NCBI GenBank assembly: GCA_945876945.1
Contig: CAMCQE010000005.1
Coordinates: 922 to 64,921 of the forward strand
Direction: 5' to 3'
From: Klebsiella pneumoniae
Lineage (GTDB): Bacteria; Pseudomonadota; Gammaproteobacteria; Ga0077536
Length of the DNA: 64,000 nt
The position numbers and the translations under genes are program-made. Within the stretch, counting starts at the first letter, position 1; every line of letters starts with the position of its first letter. Below, piece by piece: positions 8,908-22,968 of this stretch. The notes beneath the pieces were generated by a model. The model was not told where the DNA came from, ran no database searches, and was given only the letters and a program-made list of their open reading frames with translations.

Positions 8908-9405
8908 CTATTGCGCGTGCTCGAACGCCATGCGAATGGCCTCGATGCGCCGACGATTGGTGCCGAAATCTTCAGCGCCAAGGCGCGAGGCCGAGCGCAC
9001 ATGAATGAGCCCTTCGGCCGGACTCACCACGAACTCGACATCGTCCTCGAAGCGCAGCCAGCGGGTGGTGAAGGTGGCGTAAAGATAGTCGGGCGTTGCC
9101 GTGCGCAAGGCGGCGCCGGTCATCCCGCCGACTACGCCGGCGAGGCGGGTGATGGCTGCAGCCGCGTCGCCCGTGTAGCGCAGAGGCGCAATCTCCGCAT
9201 ACGCCCGCTGCCGCGCATCGGGATAACGGCTCGCCTGACTGGTCACGCTGTTGCGGGTTGTGGAAGGCGCTTTCAACAAGCCGTCGCGGGCGCCGAGATC
9301 GGCCGGCGGCGAGCCGCGCAAGAAGCCCAACTGTCCGACCATCACCACGGCGACGACGACGAACACCGGCGCCAGCACACTTGCCCACATGCTCATGCGT
9401 TTCAT
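8908..9405 (-). CDS. DUF1499 domain-containing protein (N-terminal signal/anchor)
   Basis: Hydrophobic N-terminus. The C-terminal half, RWLRFEDDVEFVV...IHVRSASRLGAEDFGTNRRRIE, is typical of DUF1499. Confidence 0.7.
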   Translation of the reverse strand: MKRMSMWASVLAPVFVVVAVVMVGQLGFLRGSPPADLGARDGLLKAPSTTRNSVTSQASRYPDARQRAYAEIAPLRYTGDAAAAITRLAGVVGGMTGAALRTATPDYLYATFTTRWLRFEDDVEFVVSPAEGLIHVRSASRLGAEDFGTNRRRIEAIRMAFEHAQ

Positions 9406-9422: not shown

Positions 9423-9647
9423 CTAACCGAGTTCAGCCGACAGCGCGTTGAGTTCCGCGTCAGTGGGGAAATGCCCGGTCGCGGCTTTTGAATAAATCAC
9501 CCGGCCGGCGCTGCGGATCTCGAAAATGCCGCGCGAACCCTGGATCAATGTGACGGACTGCGCGCCCTGACGCTGCAAGCTATCCCTCGCACGGAGGGCG
9601 TGTGGCTTGTAGCTTCACATCACGCAGTATTCGATTTCGATGCTCAT
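9423..9647 (-). CDS. SelW/Rdx-family selenoprotein candidate (in-frame TGA 9615..9617 read as Sec)
   Basis: Not in the ORF track. ATG is at 9647 (GAGG with a 5-nt spacer) and TAG at 9423..9425. Translation is MSIEIEYCVM-U-SYKPHALRARDSLQRQGAQSVTLIQGSRGIFEIRSAGRVIYSKAATGHFPTDAELNALSAELG, with a CxxU-x-YK motif as in SelW. Confidence 0.75.
9572..9613 (-). promoter_or_regulatory. SECIS-like stem-loop immediately 3' of the in-frame UGA
   Basis: Hand-folded. The lower stem GCUACAAGC/GCUUGCAGC has 8 of 9 pairs. An internal loop leads to the upper stem CCCUC/GAGGG, capped by the apical loop CGUGC 22-26 nt after the UGA. Confidence 0.6.
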
Positions 9648-9723
9648 GGTGGCCTCGCTGCAGAGAGTGGAAAGGGCTAGGTCGGAGCCTACTGCAAGCG
9701 GTGCGGACTTGTCCTGCCTCGAC

Positions 9724-10683
9724 TCATTTGAGCGCGTGGTCCGAACGCTCGGTCAGTAGCCCCATCTCGTCATCACTCAAGGCAAGCGCCATGGCGGATG
9801 CCGCCGCGCTGGCCTGCCAGGGTTTGGTCGCGCCGATCACCGCCAGGCCCAAATCGCCGAGTCGGTGCAGCACCCACGCCAGCGCCACCTCCGCCGCATT
9901 CACGCCATGCGCCTCGGCGATGTGTGAGAGGGCCTCCATCAAGGGCGCTGTGCGCGTGATGTCCTGCGGCATCATCAAGCGGCGCCGTAGGCCTTGCGTC
10001 GCAAGCGCCGTCGGATCGCGATGAAACCGCCCGCTCAGAAAGCCCTTGGCCAGCGGACTATAGGCAATCACGCTGATGCCTAACTCCCGCGCGGTCTCGA
10101 GCACGCCGTTGGTCTCGAGCCCACGGTGCAGCAGATTGAAACGCAGTTCATTGGCCACCAGCGGCAGCCCCAGATTGGCCAGCGTCTGATGCGCCTGACG
10201 CATCGCGCGTGCGCTGAAATTACTCACGCCCACCGCGCTGATTAAGCCTTTTTTTGCGAGCGTCGCCATCGCTTTCATTTCGCTGGCGGCGGAGGAAAAG
10301 CCGTAGGGGTGATGCACCATGTACAGCCCGATCGGATAGCCGTTCAGCGCCGACAAGCGGGCGTCGATCGTGGCCGGGATGCTGCGCGACGTTCTGAATA
10401 GCGGAAACCATTTGTTGGCGATCATCACGCTCGCCGGTGCGATATTGAGGCTGCGCAGGGCCGCCGCAAGCGAACGCTCAGAGACCCCGAAGCCATACAT
10501 TTCCGCCGTATCAAACCAGTTGATGCCGCCGTCCAGCGCGGTTTTGATGACCGCCGTTTTTGCGGCCTGATCGAGCGGCGCGAACAGCGTGCGCGCAATG
10601 CGACCCGGGCCGGCGGCAAAATCAGCGAGCCCCAGTCCGACTGCGCTGACGAAGGGGCCGTTGTGGCCAAGGCGACGTTGCAT
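9724..10683 (-). CDS. aldo/keto reductase
   Basis: AKR-like throughout (GINWFDTAEMYG, ...VGVSNF...). The ATG at 10683 is preceded by GAGGAA. Confidence 0.88.
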   Translation of the reverse strand: MQRRLGHNGPFVSAVGLGLADFAAGPGRIARTLFAPLDQAAKTAVIKTALDGGINWFDTAEMYGFGVSERSLAAALRSLNIAPASVMIANKWFPLFRTSRSIPATIDARLSALNGYPIGLYMVHHPYGFSSAASEMKAMATLAKKGLISAVGVSNFSARAMRQAHQTLANLGLPLVANELRFNLLHRGLETNGVLETARELGISVIAYSPLAKGFLSGRFHRDPTALATQGLRRRLMMPQDITRTAPLMEALSHIAEAHGVNAAEVALAWVLHRLGDLGLAVIGATKPWQASAAASAMALALSDDEMGLLTERSDHALK

Positions 10684-10812
10684 AAGGTTTCCTCGGTGGG
10701 GAGTCTCTGCATTCTCGCGCAAACTTGTTTCACATCGGCGCAGGCACAAGGCCCGAGGCACGGCTAGAATCGCCGCTCTGCAGCCACACTCGAAGAAGAC
10801 AGGAGTTTGTCG

Positions 10813-11633: not shown

Positions 11634-13004
11634 TCAGTTGGCGGCTGATAACACCCGCACAGGATTGGCGTAAATCCAGTCAAGCCAACCTTCATCGCCG
11701 ACAAGTAGCGCCAACTCCACCCGATAGTTCCCTGCCGCCGGTACCGGCCAGTCCAGCGTGCGGGATTCAACGCGCGCGATCGCTTCACCGTCTTTGACTA
11801 TCGTCCAGCGCGCCGGCAGCGATGCTTCGCCTTTGAGGCGGAGCGCCGGGGTCCAGGCAATGTTCTCGCCCATGGTCGCGCGAAGCGGGCCATCCTCGGC
11901 GAAAAAGACGAAACCACGGGCATCCGCGAGCAGGTTAAACGCCACGTAGCAGCGGGCGCTGCGCAGGGCGTCCATGAGTGCTTCCGCAGTGTTGTCGTGG
12001 GCCAGCAAATGGGTATTCACATAGCGCAGGCTGCGCTCGTAGGGGTCCAGATCCAGATGCACGAGTTCGCGTCCGGGGATCAACGGCCCGAACAGCAGCG
12101 CCAGCATCCAGCGCGTGACGGGGCCGACGGGGCGCTGCGGGTCGGTGAAGGATTTCCGGCTCGACTGACGCAGCCACAAGCCACCCTGCTCGGTGTACTC
12201 AAGGCGTAGCCCCAGGTTCTGATGCGCATCGTTGGCGCCAAAGCCGCTCATGCGCCGGTCGCGATTCTGCCGGTCCCACAGCTTCAGCTGCGCCTCGGGG
12301 CGGTCGTAGATTTCGCGGATCGCGAGCTCAGGCCAGCGCCAGGTATTCATCAGCAGCTGCGGCAGGATGCGGCCAAGCTTGTCGTCCAGAAAGTCGGTGT
12401 GGATGTTGTAGATCTCCATCGCCGATACCGCGGTGACGTCATAAGGCCTCGGCATTTCGGTGTGCCCGAAGCCCGTCAAGCCGCCTGCGCCTTCCACCCG
12501 TGCAGCGGTCTCGGCGAGCGGCACGCCGCAATCAAGGGTCGCCTGACTTGCCAGCCCCCAGATCAGCAGCCCGTTATGCAGTTCCCAACCGCGAATGAAC
12601 CGAACCTCGTGGTGCAGTCCGTCCCACTGCAGGCTGAAGTCGGCTTTTTTATCGATGCAGTGGTCGGTCATGAAGACGACGTCCACGCTTGCCGCCTTCG
12701 CGGCCGCGAGGATGCTGGGGAACGGCACTTCCGAGTCGTGTGAGAGCGCGGAATGCGAATGGATCACGGCCCGATATTCGCCCCAGCCGTCGTCAAGCTG
12801 CACGGGCGCCGCCTGTGCGCGGAGAGCGGTCAACTCGTGCGTGAGGCGCGGGAAGCGAAAGAAATAGTTCGACAGCGGCGCGCGCAGATAAACCGCCGAG
12901 GCCAGCAGGAGCACGCACGTCGCACCGAGCAGGACACGCCAAGTGATGAACCACCAGCGCGTAGCCGCGCGACGTCGTTGCCGCGCCCGTGCGATGGAAG
13001 ACAT
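11634..13004 (-). CDS. membrane-anchored PHP-superfamily metallophosphoesterase-like protein
   Basis: The N-terminus has an Arg-rich stretch plus one TM helix (WWFITWRVLLGATCVLLLASAVYL). PHP-like metal motifs are present: HSHSALSHDS, FMTDH, GANDAHQN. The C-terminal end is ...WIYANPVRV. The start is ATG 13004 or 13046. Confidence 0.55.
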   Translation of the reverse strand: MSSIARARQRRRAATRWWFITWRVLLGATCVLLLASAVYLRAPLSNYFFRFPRLTHELTALRAQAAPVQLDDGWGEYRAVIHSHSALSHDSEVPFPSILAAAKAASVDVVFMTDHCIDKKADFSLQWDGLHHEVRFIRGWELHNGLLIWGLASQATLDCGVPLAETAARVEGAGGLTGFGHTEMPRPYDVTAVSAMEIYNIHTDFLDDKLGRILPQLLMNTWRWPELAIREIYDRPEAQLKLWDRQNRDRRMSGFGANDAHQNLGLRLEYTEQGGLWLRQSSRKSFTDPQRPVGPVTRWMLALLFGPLIPGRELVHLDLDPYERSLRYVNTHLLAHDNTAEALMDALRSARCYVAFNLLADARGFVFFAEDGPLRATMGENIAWTPALRLKGEASLPARWTIVKDGEAIARVESRTLDWPVPAAGNYRVELALLVGDEGWLDWIYANPVRVLSAAN

Positions 13005-13168
13005 TGCGACCCCGGAATTGAAACCTTGTGTTGAGGCACCCTCCAATCAATTGGAGGCTTAAGTCTCAATTCTGGCACAGGCCCCGCATTCATCCCGCGG
13101 CGGGCGCAAAGTTTTTCACCTGCTCGCCGGGATCGGCAAAGCAGGTGGCGTCCGGCCAGACGACCGGC

Positions 13169-20736: not shown

Positions 20737-22968
20737 ATGGCCGTACTGACCGGCACTTCCGCCAAAAACCGGCTGAGCGGCACCAGCAGTCGCGACACCC
20801 TGAACGGCCTGGCCGGTGACGACACCCTGCTCGGCCTCGCCGGCAGCGACCTGCTGCTGGGGGGCGCCGGAAATGACACCCTGGACGGCGGCGCGGGCGC
20901 CGACACGCTGAACGGCGGCGCGGGGGATGATGTTTATCTGGTCGACGCCGCGCTGGACAAAGTGCTGGAATCCGCCAGCTCAGGCACAGATCTGGTCAAG
21001 AGCACCGTCAGCTACACGCTGCCAACCAATATTGAACAACTCACCCTGCTCGGTAGCGCCGCCCTCAACGCCACCGGCAACGCGCTCGCCAATCGCCTGA
21101 CCGGCAACGCCGGCAACAACCGGTTAAACGGCGGTGTTGGCGCGGACAGCCTGATCGGCGGGGCCGGCAACGACACCTATGTCATCGATAACCTGGGTGA
21201 CCGCATCAGCGATTCCGCCGGCGTCGACACGGTGGAAACCTCCCTCTCCTATCAACTGGGCACCGGCCTCGAGCGCTTGGTCCTGACCGGCGCGGCCTCG
21301 ATCAATGGCACGGGCAACACCCACGCCAACCTCATCACGGGCAACAGCGGCGACAACACGCTCGATGGCGGCACGGGCAACGATACGCTGTTCGGCGCGG
21401 CAGGGGTCGACACCCTCTACGGCGGCGACAACGACGACACCCTCGACGGCGGGGCGGGCGCAGACACCCTCATCGGCGGCGAGGGCAACGATCTGTTCGT
21501 GGTCGACGATGCGGGCGACGTGGTGCTCGACGCTGGCGGCCTCGATACGCTCGCCTGCTCCTTCAGCTATGCGTTGGATGCGGCGCTTGAAAACCTGATC
21601 CTGAGCGGTAGCGCGGCGATTAATGGCGCGGGCAATAGCGGCGCGAACAGCATCAGCGGCAACAGCGGCAACAACACGCTGGACGGCGGCGCCGGCAACG
21701 ACACCCTCATCGGCGGTCTGGGCGACGACACCCTCATTGGTGGCGCCGACAGCGATACCGCGAGTTACGACACTGCGCCCGCCGGCGTCAGCGTGGCGCT
21801 TGCCGCCGGCGTGTTGCTGCGCTATCGCTTCAATACCGATGCGCTGGTCTACAACAACCCGGGGCTCGATCCCGCCAGCACGCTACCTAGCGGGCTCTCC
21901 GGCGGTGGCGCGTGGTCGACGCAAGACGGTACGGCGCTCGAAGTCGCGGGCTTGAAAGGCCAGGGCGTCACGGACACAGCGATCGCGGCCACGAGCTGGC
22001 ACGACGGCAACGCCTTTGTGTTCAGCCTGACGGTGGCGGAGGGTTACGTGCTGGACCTCTCGTCGGTTGATTTCTGGGAACAGGGCTCGAGCGGCAATCG
22101 CGGCTTTGGCCCCACCAGCTGGAGCCTGAGTGCGAACAGCGTGAGTCTGGCAGCCGGCGCCGCCCAGCGCGGCAATCCGGGCGCCGTGCATCTGCTTGAT
22201 TTGAGCGCTCAAAGCGCCCTCGCCGGTACGGTCAACTTCATGCTGGCCGCCACGGGCGCCGCGGATTCGGCGCTCGGTGCGAACAACGCCGCCGGCGCGA
22301 CCTGGCGCGTCGACAACTTCACCCTCACCGGCAGCGTTCGTCCGGCGCAGGCGCCGGCGCAAAATACCGGCGGCGCAGGGAACGATGTATTGCTCGACAT
22401 CGAGCACCTTACCGGCAGCGCCTATGCCGATAGGCTGACCGGCGACGCGAGCGACAACACCTTGACTGGCGGCGCCGGCGCCGACGTACTGGCAGGGCTG
22501 GGCGGCGCGGACCAGCTGCTGGGCGGCGCCGACGCCGACACCCTCTACGGCGACGCGGGCGCCGACACCCTGGATGGCGGCGCCGGCAGCGACGTGCTGG
22601 AGGGGAATGCCGGCAACGACACCTTGAGCGGCGGCGCGGGCGAGGACAGCTTTCGCTTCAGCGCCATGCTGGGCGTTGGCAACGTGGACATCGTGAGCGA
22701 CTTTGCGGGCGCGGGCGCGACCGGCGGCGACGTTCTGTTGCTCGACCGCGACTGGTTCTTTGGGATGACAGCCGGCGCGCTGGCCGGCGCCGCCTTCGAG
22801 ACCGGCACCGCAGCGAGCGCATTCACCACCCGCATCCTCTATGACGCCGTGACAGGCAATCTGTTCTTTGATCAGGACGGCAGCCTGAGCACCTTCAGCC
22901 CCGTGCAGTTCGCCACGCTCAGCACCCATCCGGCCGGTCTGGCCGCGGGCGACTTCCTGATCGGCTGA
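20737..22968 (+). CDS. RTX-type calcium-binding repeat protein (probable type I secretion substrate) with central non-repeat domain
   Basis: 743 aa. It has many GGxGxDxL/I nonapeptide repeats arranged in about 75-aa super-repeats (residues ~1-345 and ~545-640). A repeat-free stretch spans about 350-540. There is no N-terminal signal peptide. Confidence 0.85.
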   Translation: MAVLTGTSAKNRLSGTSSRDTLNGLAGDDTLLGLAGSDLLLGGAGNDTLDGGAGADTLNGGAGDDVYLVDAALDKVLESASSGTDLVKSTVSYTLPTNIEQLTLLGSAALNATGNALANRLTGNAGNNRLNGGVGADSLIGGAGNDTYVIDNLGDRISDSAGVDTVETSLSYQLGTGLERLVLTGAASINGTGNTHANLITGNSGDNTLDGGTGNDTLFGAAGVDTLYGGDNDDTLDGGAGADTLIGGEGNDLFVVDDAGDVVLDAGGLDTLACSFSYALDAALENLILSGSAAINGAGNSGANSISGNSGNNTLDGGAGNDTLIGGLGDDTLIGGADSDTASYDTAPAGVSVALAAGVLLRYRFNTDALVYNNPGLDPASTLPSGLSGGGAWSTQDGTALEVAGLKGQGVTDTAIAATSWHDGNAFVFSLTVAEGYVLDLSSVDFWEQGSSGNRGFGPTSWSLSANSVSLAAGAAQRGNPGAVHLLDLSAQSALAGTVNFMLAATGAADSALGANNAAGATWRVDNFTLTGSVRPAQAPAQNTGGAGNDVLLDIEHLTGSAYADRLTGDASDNTLTGGAGADVLAGLGGADQLLGGADADTLYGDAGADTLDGGAGSDVLEGNAGNDTLSGGAGEDSFRFSAMLGVGNVDIVSDFAGAGATGGDVLLLDRDWFFGMTAGALAGAAFETGTAASAFTTRILYDAVTGNLFFDQDGSLSTFSPVQFATLSTHPAGLAAGDFLIG

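What the first reader, a model, noticed from the sequence alone, without database searches (positions are those of the whole stretch)
9423..9647. SelW/Rdx-type selenoprotein gene hidden from the ORF track by an in-frame TGA, with a SECIS-like hairpin
The ORF track shows only shadow ORFs here, because the true frame contains TGA. Reading the minus strand from ATG 9647 (GAGG 5 nt upstream) to TAG 9425..9423 gives 74 codons: MSIEIEYCVM-[TGA 9617..9615]-SYKPHALRARDSLQRQGAQSVTLIQGSRGIFEIRSAGRVIYSKAATGHFPTDAELNALSAELG. Read as Sec, the N-terminus is IEYC-x-x-U-x-YK. That is the CxxU redox motif and context of the SelW/SelT/Rdx thioredoxin-fold family (mammalian SelW has YCGAUGYK, quoted from memory). 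The downstream pattern G.FE...G..I.SK..G.FP also fits that family. Coding-like sequence continues for 63 codons after the TGA. Two nt after the TGA, a 42-nt stem-loop begins (9613..9572). It has a lower stem GCUACAAGC/GCUUGCAGC (8 of 9 pairs), an internal loop, an upper stem CCCUC/GAGGG, and an apical loop CGUGC 22-26 nt after the UGA. That position and shape are what a bacterial SECIS should have. SelW-like bacterial selenoproteins are known, so the family is not new. However, standard gene callers would miss this gene, and it would make the organism a Sec user.
Basis: partly seen in the sequence, partly recalled or inferred. Interest (0 to 1): 0.75.

Follow-up and report, generated by a model that had tools for sequence, protein, structure and literature searches.

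The report
Hidden SelW-like selenoprotein gene with SECIS
This is a real 74-codon gene for a small SelW/Rdx-type redox protein whose 11th codon is a UGA read as selenocysteine with the help of a conserved RNA hairpin; it belongs to the commonest known bacterial selenoprotein family, so it is a correct but ordinary find.

Summary
The minus-strand ORF 9647..9423 has 74 codons, with TGA at 9617..9615 in a C-x-x-U motif. With U read as C, the peptide passes the curated cut-offs of Pfam Rdx (57.6 bits against 22.6) and TIGR02174 CXXU_selWTH. The same column is TGA in 89 of 89 homologous loci. Eighty of these came from a metagenome scan whose search patterns did not constrain that codon. This rules out a sequencing error or a pseudogene.

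A 5-bp stem with a 5-nt loop (CCCUC-CGUGC-GAGGG, 9598..9584) lies 16 nt after the UGA and is conserved. Across 53 distinct sequences 97.7% of cells pair and 4 of 5 pairs change on both sides. None of 500 shuffles reached the observed covariation score. The covarying changes include purely synonymous ones (Ala GCC with Arg AGG, GCU with AGA). The hairpin meets all four criteria of the published bacterial SECIS model.

Public databases hold this gene only as a 51-aa truncated ORF. selA, selB, selC and selD are absent from the window, and the rest of the genome could not be searched.

SelW-like CxxU proteins are already the most abundant known prokaryotic selenoprotein family. This is therefore a new member of a known kind, and of low interest.

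The parts
9423..9647 (-). Complete coding sequence of a SelW-like/Rdx-family selenoprotein: 74 codons including Sec at codon 11, with stop TAG at 9425..9423.
   Evidence: Translation. Pfam PF10262 scores 57.6 bits against a cut-off of 22.6. TIGR02174 scores 46.2 bits against 34.2. dN/dS is about 0.28-0.35 for codons 23-69 against relatives.
9653..9656 (-). Shine-Dalgarno-like GAGG, 5 nt upstream of ATG 9647..9645.
   Evidence: Read directly from the sequence. Its function is inferred.
9624..9626 (-). Cys codon (TGC), the first residue of the C-x-x-U redox motif.
   Evidence: Cys is at this column in 88 of 89 loci. The separate homologue L099 has TGA at this position.
9615..9617 (-). In-frame TGA, inferred to be a selenocysteine codon (codon 11).
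   Evidence: TGA is at this column in 89 of 89 homologous loci. It aligns with the second Cys of the CxxC motif in PDB 2LJK and 2FA8. TGA is a normal stop in this genome, ending 10 of 15 genes.
9584..9598 (-). Conserved SECIS core. The 5-bp stem is CCCUC (9598..9594) paired with GAGGG (9588..9584). The apical loop is CGUGC (9593..9589).
   Evidence: 97.7% of cells pair. Four of 5 pairs change on both sides. The covariation score is 0.268 against 0.087 in shuffles, with 0 of 500 shuffles reaching it. Synonymous covariation is seen. The core alone folds at -7.8 kcal/mol. It meets the bSECIS criteria.
9572..9613 (-). This is a clade-specific extension.
   Evidence: It folds at -15.9 kcal/mol with z = -2.37. 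The lower stem is kept in L003 and L018 but not across the family. On average 5.2 bp enclose the core, against 6.3 bp with shuffled flanks, and 20 of 70 sequences have none.
8908..9396 (-). Downstream DUF1499 gene, 26 nt after the Rdx stop codon and probably co-transcribed. The 162-aa start at 9396 follows a GGAG; the longest ORF starts at 9405.
   Evidence: Pfam PF07386 at 109.7 bits. The adjacency to the Rdx gene is conserved in L002, L003, L014-L022, L095 and L097.
9724..10761 (-). Upstream aldo/keto reductase gene on the same strand. It ends in TGA 76 nt before the Rdx ATG.
   Evidence: Pfam PF00248 at 172.9 bits. An AKR also lies next to the Rdx gene in a distant clade, in divergent orientation.

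Best explanation
The minus-strand ORF 9647..9423 encodes a 74-residue SelW-like (Rdx-family) thiol/selenol oxidoreductase with an N-terminal C-x-x-U motif. During translation, the UGA at codon 11 is not read as stop. A stem-loop inside the coding sequence has a 5-bp stem that starts 16 nt after the UGA and a loop CGUGC at +22 to +26. It acts as a bacterial SECIS: it is bound by SelB-GTP carrying Sec-tRNA(Sec), which is delivered to the UGA. The product presumably cycles between a selenenylsulfide (Cys8-Sec11) and the reduced form. It is probably expressed together with the DUF1499 gene just downstream. Four things were shown here: family membership, conservation of the TGA, protein-level selection on both sides of it, and covariation in the hairpin. 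Three things are inferred from established knowledge of bacterial Sec decoding and the Rdx family: SelB binding, actual Sec insertion, and the redox chemistry.
For: The sequence and frame are as described. Pfam Rdx scores 57.6 bits against 22.6, and TIGR02174 CXXU_selWTH scores 46.2 against 34.2. The peptide aligns over the CxxC column with the solved Rdx-fold proteins 2LJK, 2FA8, 2OJL and 2NPB (SelW). TGA is at the same codon in L001, L002 and L003, in six divergent homologues, and in all 80 metagenome loci found with patterns blind to that codon, giving 89 of 89. The family-wide hits in public protein sets are mostly 41-60 aa ORFs truncated just after this column, or carry W there. Purifying selection acts downstream of the TGA (dN/dS about 0.3). 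The TTG start of the 51-aa ORF is not conserved; it is CUC in the L029 clade, for example. The upper stem pairs in 97.7-98.4% of cells, against 38-61% for slid partners. No shuffle reached the observed value (0 of 500 and 0 of 2000). Four of 5 pairs change on both sides. The covariation includes synonymous changes: GCC/AGG in 61 sequences, GCU/AGA in 7, and GCC/AGA in none. The stem uses AGG, which makes up only 8 of 504 Arg codons in the window's genes. Loop G+25 is invariant and G+23 is present in 73 of 77 sequences. All four published bSECIS criteria are met. TGA is an ordinary stop in this genome. The one Cys-form homologue examined lacks the hairpin.
Against: No selA, selB or selD homologue and no tRNA-Sec were found in the 64-kb window or in 31 kb of two related genomes. 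The Sec-decoding machinery of this organism is therefore unverified, and the rest of the genome could not be searched. The hairpin's thermodynamic z-score is modest (-1.0 to -2.4), and one 61-nt context folds differently. The stem overlaps a conserved peptide (ALRxR), so part of the nucleotide conservation could reflect the protein. The 89 loci are not phylogenetically independent. No Rfam SECIS family matches. Only one Cys-form control was available.
Confidence: 0.9

Rival explanations
1. The gene is a Cys-type Rdx gene, and the TGA is a sequencing or assembly error or a recent inactivating mutation (a pseudogene).
For: TGC or TGT becomes TGA by a single substitution. Cys-form homologues do exist, such as P0008 with CEPC.
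Against: TGA is at this codon in 89 of 89 independent assemblies, spanning 44-99% protein identity. The frame is intact, and purifying selection acts downstream.
Confidence: 0.01
2. Translation stops at the UGA, and the functional product is the 51-aa ORF initiated at TTG 9578, as public databases annotate it. Alternatively, the UGA is read through by a near-cognate tRNA without Sec.
For: Gene callers report the 51-aa ORF. Selection on codons 23-69 is by itself compatible with this product.
Against: The 51-aa product would lack strand beta-1 and the whole redox motif of the Rdx fold. The TTG is not conserved as a start codon in other clades. Codons 1-22, including IEYCxxU-xYKP, are conserved as protein. 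A covarying hairpin at SECIS distance would have no role in this scenario.
Confidence: 0.04
3. The gene is a relic. This lineage has lost the Sec machinery, and the gene is no longer expressed as a selenoprotein.
For: No sel genes were found in the sequence available. Loss of selenoproteins is common in bacteria (PMC1794560).
Against: The ORF, the TGA and the SECIS core are intact and identical across close relatives (window, L001, L002, L014-L017). They are also kept in relatives at 64-74% identity with dN/dS of about 0.3. That pattern is not expected for a dead gene.
Confidence: 0.04
4. The hairpin is only a by-product of the conserved peptide ALRxR, not a selected RNA structure.
For: The stem lies exactly over codons for Ala-Leu-Arg-Ala/Val-Arg. 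Column shuffles still give 88-91% pairing because the columns are so conserved.
Against: Third-position synonymous changes covary (GCC/AGG against GCU/AGA, with no mixed GCC/AGA). The rare Arg codon AGG is used (1.6% of Arg codons in this genome). Sequences with different peptides (ARAARD, ADRVSA, ATRVAA) keep the pairing through double changes. The Cys form lacks both the peptide and the stem.
Confidence: 0.03

Closest known systems
Prokaryotic SelW-like selenoproteins (CxxU; Pfam Rdx PF10262, formerly pfam05169; TIGR02174 CXXU_selWTH), described by Zhang, Gladyshev and colleagues
   Same: Small size of about 70-80 aa. An N-terminal C-x-x-U motif directly after strand beta-1. A Sec-UGA followed by an in-ORF bacterial SECIS. 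Sec forms greatly outnumber Cys forms: 427 against 56 in GOS (PMC2398784) and few or no Cys homologues (PMC1794560), while here 89 of 89 are TGA.
   Different: No difference in kind. This copy comes from an uncultured freshwater or engineered-system gammaproteobacterial lineage, and public databases hold it only as a 51-aa truncated ORF. It scores below the cut-off of the Campylobacter-type equivalog NF041051 (73.4 bits against 88).
Mammalian selenoprotein W (PDB 2NPB) and the Rdx-fold proteins MIEN1/C17orf37 (2LJK) and Atu0228 (2FA8)
   Same: Sequence similarity across the whole domain, with the CxxU/CxxC column aligned (E from 2e-4 to 2e-3). The motif context is YC-x-x-U-x-YKP; mouse SelW has VVYCGAUGYKP (from my own knowledge).
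   Different: Eukaryotic SelW uses a SECIS in the 3' UTR together with SBP2 and eEFSec. Here the SECIS lies inside the ORF, 16 nt after the UGA. MIEN1 and Atu0228 are Cys forms.
E. coli fdhF/fdnG SECIS and the consensus bSECIS model (bSECISearch)
   Same: A stem-loop immediately downstream of the UGA, with a small apical loop that has G followed by U in its first positions. The UGA-to-loop spacing is within 16-37 nt, and the energy is below -7.5 kcal/mol (criteria from PMC13188914; values).
   Different: The sequence is unrelated to the E. coli elements. There is no bulged U. The loop GU lies one codon further from the UGA than in fdhF (from my own knowledge of fdhF numbering). No Rfam SECIS family matches.

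Membership tests
Rdx / SelW-SelT-SelH family (Pfam PF10262; TIGR02174) | Profile-HMM score above the curated cut-off | tested here: met
   PF10262 scores 57.6 bits (cut-off 22.6, E = 1.5e-15), covering residues 3-67 of 74. TIGR02174 scores 46.2 bits (cut-off 34.2). Even the truncated 51-aa ORF carries a PF10262 assignment.
Rdx / SelW-SelT-SelH family (Pfam PF10262; TIGR02174) | CxxC or CxxU redox motif near the N-terminus, directly after the first beta-strand | tested here: met
   The motif is C8-V-M-U11. These columns align with the CxxC motifs of 2LJK (CEPC) and 2FA8 (CTQC). The motif is conserved across 89 loci.
Rdx / SelW-SelT-SelH family (Pfam PF10262; TIGR02174) | Thioredoxin-like fold | not tested
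   No structure was predicted, because the U-to-C full-length peptide is not accepted by the structure tool. The only support is sequence similarity to solved Rdx-fold chains.
NCBIfam NF041051 SelTWH_Campy (equivalog) | Score above the equivalog cut-off of 88 bits | tested here: not met
   The score is 73.4 bits. The protein is related to this equivalog group but is not a member of it.
Bacterial SECIS (consensus bSECIS model) | Apical loop of 3-9 nt on an upper stem of 4-16 bp | tested here: met
   The loop is 5 nt (CGUGC) and the stem 5 bp (CCCUC/GAGGG). Pairing holds in 97.7% of cells, with covariation. The criteria are from PMC13188914.
Bacterial SECIS (consensus bSECIS model) | At least one G in the first two loop positions, usually followed by G or U | tested here: met
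   Loop position 2 is G, followed by U. G+23 is present in 73 of 77 sequences, and G+25 in 77 of 77.
Bacterial SECIS (consensus bSECIS model) | [quoted passage not shown] | tested here: met
   The loop occupies +22 to +26 after the UGA, a spacing of 21 nt. The alignment has no indels across 54 sequences.
Bacterial SECIS (consensus bSECIS model) | Minimum free energy of -7.5 kcal/mol or lower | tested here: met
   The 42-nt hairpin folds at -15.9 kcal/mol. The core alone folds at -7.8 kcal/mol.
Bacterial SECIS (consensus bSECIS model) | Binding by SelB and selenium-dependent UGA recoding | not testable with these tools
   This needs a reporter assay, 75Se labelling or mass spectrometry.
Rfam curated SECIS families | Covariance-model match | tested here: not met
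   No SECIS family matched at the gathering threshold over the whole window, or at E <= 10 over 9500..9700.
Sec-decoding trait of the host genome | selA, selB, selD and tRNA-Sec (selC) present in the genome | tested here: inconclusive
   tblastn with E. coli SelA, SelB and SelD found nothing in the window (best E = 0.13) or in L002 and L003. ARAGORN and Rfam found only a tRNA-Lys. Only about 64 kb of this genome and 31 kb of relatives were available, so absence here says little.

The most novel reading that the evidence does not exclude
The Sec-type SelW-like gene may form a conserved functional module with the DUF1499 gene immediately downstream, and more loosely with an adjacent aldo/keto reductase. 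The DUF1499 adjacency is kept down to about 64% Rdx identity. The reductase is found next to Rdx genes in two different arrangements in two distant clades. If this is real, it would give the first genomic handle on the unknown physiological role of bacterial SelW-like proteins and of DUF1499.
Probability: 0.15. Interest if true: 0.4.

Novelty: new member of a known kind. Interest (0 to 1): 0.2.

Why it matters
The practical value is in annotation. Every public copy of this protein cluster (19 of 19 members, including NCBI MDH4383149.1) is a 51-aa fragment that lacks the redox motif. The lineage's use of selenocysteine is therefore invisible in current records. The tightly conserved, covarying 15-nt SECIS core (GCCCUC-CGUGY-GAGGG, at a fixed 16-nt spacing) is not covered by any Rfam family. 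It could serve as a simple, specific marker for repairing SelW-like gene calls in metagenomes. Biologically it adds nothing new in kind, because SelW-like CxxU proteins have been known since 2005 as the most abundant prokaryotic selenoprotein family.

Tried and rejected
1. The word-indexed protein search with the U-to-C peptide returned only one hit.

2. The exact-product look-up of the 165-aa DUF1499 ORF failed. Public gene calls start 3 codons later, giving 162 aa.

A 4-sequence alignment worked.

4. It encloses the core no more often than shuffled flanks do.

5. A loose scan of the window for other UGA-plus-hairpin sites gave 54 hits against about 39 in shuffles. It is non-specific and yielded no credible second selenoprotein candidate.

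6. An alternative genetic code with TGA as a sense codon was rejected, because TGA terminates 10 of 15 confident genes in the window.

7. The giant proteins that matched (P0004, P0007) are not Rdx proteins. Pfam assigns them G2F and DA_N, so those matches are spurious.

8. No sigma-70-like promoter or terminator was found around the gene, which is uninformative.

9. I could not identify or search the rest of the source genome.

Full report
**Observation.** On the minus strand the sequence reads GAGG-ccacc-ATG(9647) AGC ATC GAA ATC GAA TAC TGC GTG ATG TGA(9617..9615) AGC TAC AAG ... GGT TAG(9425..9423). The mechanical ORF list does contain an in-frame 51-aa ORF from TTG 9578 to 9423. The region is therefore not covered by shadow ORFs only. 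The upstream aldo/keto reductase gene ends in TGA at 9726..9724, and 10 of 15 confident genes in the window end in TGA. TGA is thus an ordinary stop codon in this 63% G+C genome.

**Family membership.** With U replaced by C, the 74-aa peptide matches Pfam Rdx (PF10262) at 57.6 bits (cut-off 22.6, E = 1.5e-15) over residues 3-67. It matches TIGR02174 CXXU_selWTH at 46.2 bits (cut-off 34.2). It scores 73.4 bits against the Campylobacter-type equivalog NF041051, which is below that model's cut-off of 88. Against solved structures, it aligns over its whole length with MIEN1/C17orf37 (2LJK), Atu0228 (2FA8), 2OJL and selenoprotein W (2NPB), at E from 2e-4 to 2e-3. In those alignments C8 and U11 sit on the CxxC columns.

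**Is the TGA real and conserved?** A 935-bp JGI contig (L001, about 95% nucleotide identity) and two Gammaproteobacteria MAG contigs all carry TGA at the same codon, with the same frame open on both sides. The MAG contigs are L002 (96% protein identity) and L003 (68%). An exhaustive HMMER search with the 63 codons after the TGA found 33 representatives. Most are ORFs of 41-60 aa that begin just after the Sec column. Some are full length with W at that column, meaning a TGA that was called under genetic code 4. One is a true Cys form (P0008, CEPC). I read the DNA of six of these, and each has IEYC-x-x-TGA followed by conserved coding sequence. A metagenome scan then used two peptide patterns that do not include the Sec codon. 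It found 290 relatives, of which the best 80 were kept. Together with the earlier loci, 89 of 89 have TGA at codon 11 and none has a Cys codon. This excludes a sequencing error or a pseudogene. It also agrees with the literature: SelW-like proteins are overwhelmingly Sec forms (427 Sec against 56 Cys in GOS, PMC2398784; few or no Cys homologues, PMC1794560).

**Is the whole ORF translated?** Against seven relatives at 64-74% identity, codons 23-69 show pS of 0.53-0.78 and pN of 0.23-0.30, giving dN/dS of about 0.28-0.35. Codons 1-10 and 12-22 are also conserved at the protein level. The TTG that starts the 51-aa ORF is not conserved as a start codon; in the L029 clade it is CUC. A product that begins there would lack strand beta-1 and the redox motif.

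**The hairpin.**
It persists in longer contexts, although one 61-nt window gives a different minimum-energy fold.
- Comparative data separate the hairpin into two parts. The upper stem (+17..+21 paired with +27..+31 after the UGA; window 9598..9594 with 9588..9584) and its 5-nt loop are conserved without indels.
- In 77 distinct sequences the five pairs are standard in 75-77 cases each. The pair types are CG 66, UA 8, AU 1 (pair 18-30); CG 72, GC 2, UG 1 (19-29); UA 71, GC 3, AU 2, CG 1 (20-28); and CG 73, UA 2, UG 1 (21-27). Loop G+25 is invariant, and G+23 is present in 73 of 77.
- Overall pairing is 98.4%, against 38-61% with slid partners and 91.3 +/- 0.4% in column shuffles. None of 2000 shuffles reached the observed value.
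- The session's pair-counting tool was run on 54 sequences (53 distinct rows). It gives 97.7% paired, 4 of 5 pairs with changes on both sides, 19 such cells against 2.2 expected, and a covariation score of 0.268 against 0.087 +/- 0.013. None of 500 shuffles reached that score, and slid partners gave at most 0.088.

**Is the stem only a side-effect of the peptide?** The stem overlies the conserved peptide A-L-R-A/V-R, so I checked this possibility. The third positions of the Ala and Arg codons covary synonymously: GCC with AGG in 61 sequences, GCU with AGA in 7, and GCC with AGA in none. The Arg codon in the stem is AGG, which accounts for only 8 of 504 Arg codons in the window's genes. Homologues with different peptides at that position (ARAARD, ADRVSA, ATRVAA) keep the pairing through double substitutions. 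The one Cys-form homologue examined (L094) has neither the peptide nor the stem.

**The lower stem.** On average 5.2 bp enclose the core, against 6.3 bp with shuffled flanks, and 20 of 70 sequences have none.

**Comparison with the published bSECIS model.** The criteria (PMC13188914) are a 3-9 nt loop on a 4-16 bp stem, a G in the first two loop positions, 16-37 nt between the UGA and the loop, and an MFE of -7.5 kcal/mol or lower. This element has a 5-nt loop CGUGC on a 5-bp stem, G then U at loop positions 2 and 3, and 21 nt of spacing. It folds at -15.9 kcal/mol in full and at -7.8 kcal/mol for the core alone. All four criteria are met. No Rfam SECIS family matches it.

**Sec machinery.** ARAGORN and Rfam find only a tRNA-Lys in the window and no tRNA in L002 or L003. 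tblastn with E. coli SelA, SelB and SelD finds nothing in the window (best E = 0.13) or in L002 and L003. The window is ordinary core chromosome: gap, pgk, fba, thiolase, eutBC, trpDC, ilvA, tatC, hisAF, polA, ptsP, rapZ, rpoN and lptBC. The rest of the genome could not be searched, so this refutation test remains open. The intact, selected state of the ORF, the UGA and the SECIS across the clade is strong indirect evidence that the machinery exists.

**Context and existing annotation.** The gene sits between an aldo/keto reductase (10761..9724) and a DUF1499 gene (9396..8908), followed by a CMD/AhpD-like gene, all on the minus strand. The Rdx-DUF1499 adjacency is conserved in L002, L003, L014-L022, L095 and L097. 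All 19 members of the public 90%-identity cluster are 51-aa truncated calls. They are named 'Rdx family protein' (NCBI MDH4383149.1) or 'predicted Rdx family selenoprotein' (JGI). One member (P0044) is identical to the window's 51-aa ORF.

**Verdict.** This is a Sec-type SelW-like/Rdx gene with an in-ORF bacterial SECIS. Two refinements apply: only the 15-nt upper stem-loop is the conserved element, and gene callers truncate the gene rather than miss it. The family has been known since 2005 as the most abundant prokaryotic selenoprotein family (48 sequences in the Sargasso Sea data, PMC1088965; 427 in GOS, PMC2398784). The finding is therefore a new member of a known kind and of low interest, apart from its value for correcting annotation.

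Noticed in passing
L099:79-90 (ENA ERZ2774818, TARA_SAMEA2621021_METAG-scaffold_244800; protein P0026): A marine, AT-rich SelW-like homologue has in-frame TGA at both redox columns (tat TGA gga atg TGA aac tac aaa), which suggests a possible U-x-x-U motif. The hairpin at the same offsets is retained (CCGUC/GGCGG, loop AGUUU), with z = -3.18 in a 57-nt context. My literature searches found UxxU described only for a prokaryotic Prx-like family and for eukaryotic SelL, not for SelW-like proteins. The alternative is a host in which TGA is a sense codon. The contig was seen in 2 samples.
   Followed up: partly
window 8908-9396 (-); L003:10398-10823; L014-L022; L095; L097: A DUF1499 gene directly follows the Rdx selenoprotein gene, with a 26-nt gap in the window. 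The adjacency is conserved in relatives down to about 64% Rdx identity, which suggests a two-gene unit of unknown function.
   Followed up: partly
window 9724-10761 (-); L029, L030, L034, L035, L037 and about 18 further loci (upstream, opposite strand): An aldo/keto reductase lies next to the SelW-like gene in two different arrangements. It is co-directional in the window's clade and divergent in a distant clade whose Rdx proteins begin MKVLIEYCGA-U. This may indicate a functional link, or it may be coincidence given how common these reductases are.
   Followed up: partly
window 9423-9578 (-); proteins P0001, P0034-P0047: All 19 public members of this protein cluster are 51-aa ORFs truncated at the Sec codon, including NCBI MDH4383149.1 ('Rdx family protein'). 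Several more distant homologues are stored with W at the Sec column (P0009, P0010, P0019) because the TGA was translated under genetic code 4.
   Followed up: yes
window 9584-9598 (-) and the same offsets in L003-L093: The peptide A-L-R-A/V-R that follows the Sec residue appears to be imposed largely by the SECIS RNA. It is near-invariant in Sec forms, it uses the rare Arg codon AGG, and it is replaced by AQAAGA in the one Cys form examined (L094).
   Followed up: partly
window 11634-13046 (-): A 470-aa ORF just beyond the cyclase gene has no Pfam match at E <= 0.001.
   Followed up: no
window 20737-22968 (+): A 743-aa protein carries 10 RTX/hemolysin-type calcium-binding repeat matches. It is probably a secreted RTX protein, sitting in an otherwise housekeeping region.
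   Followed up: no
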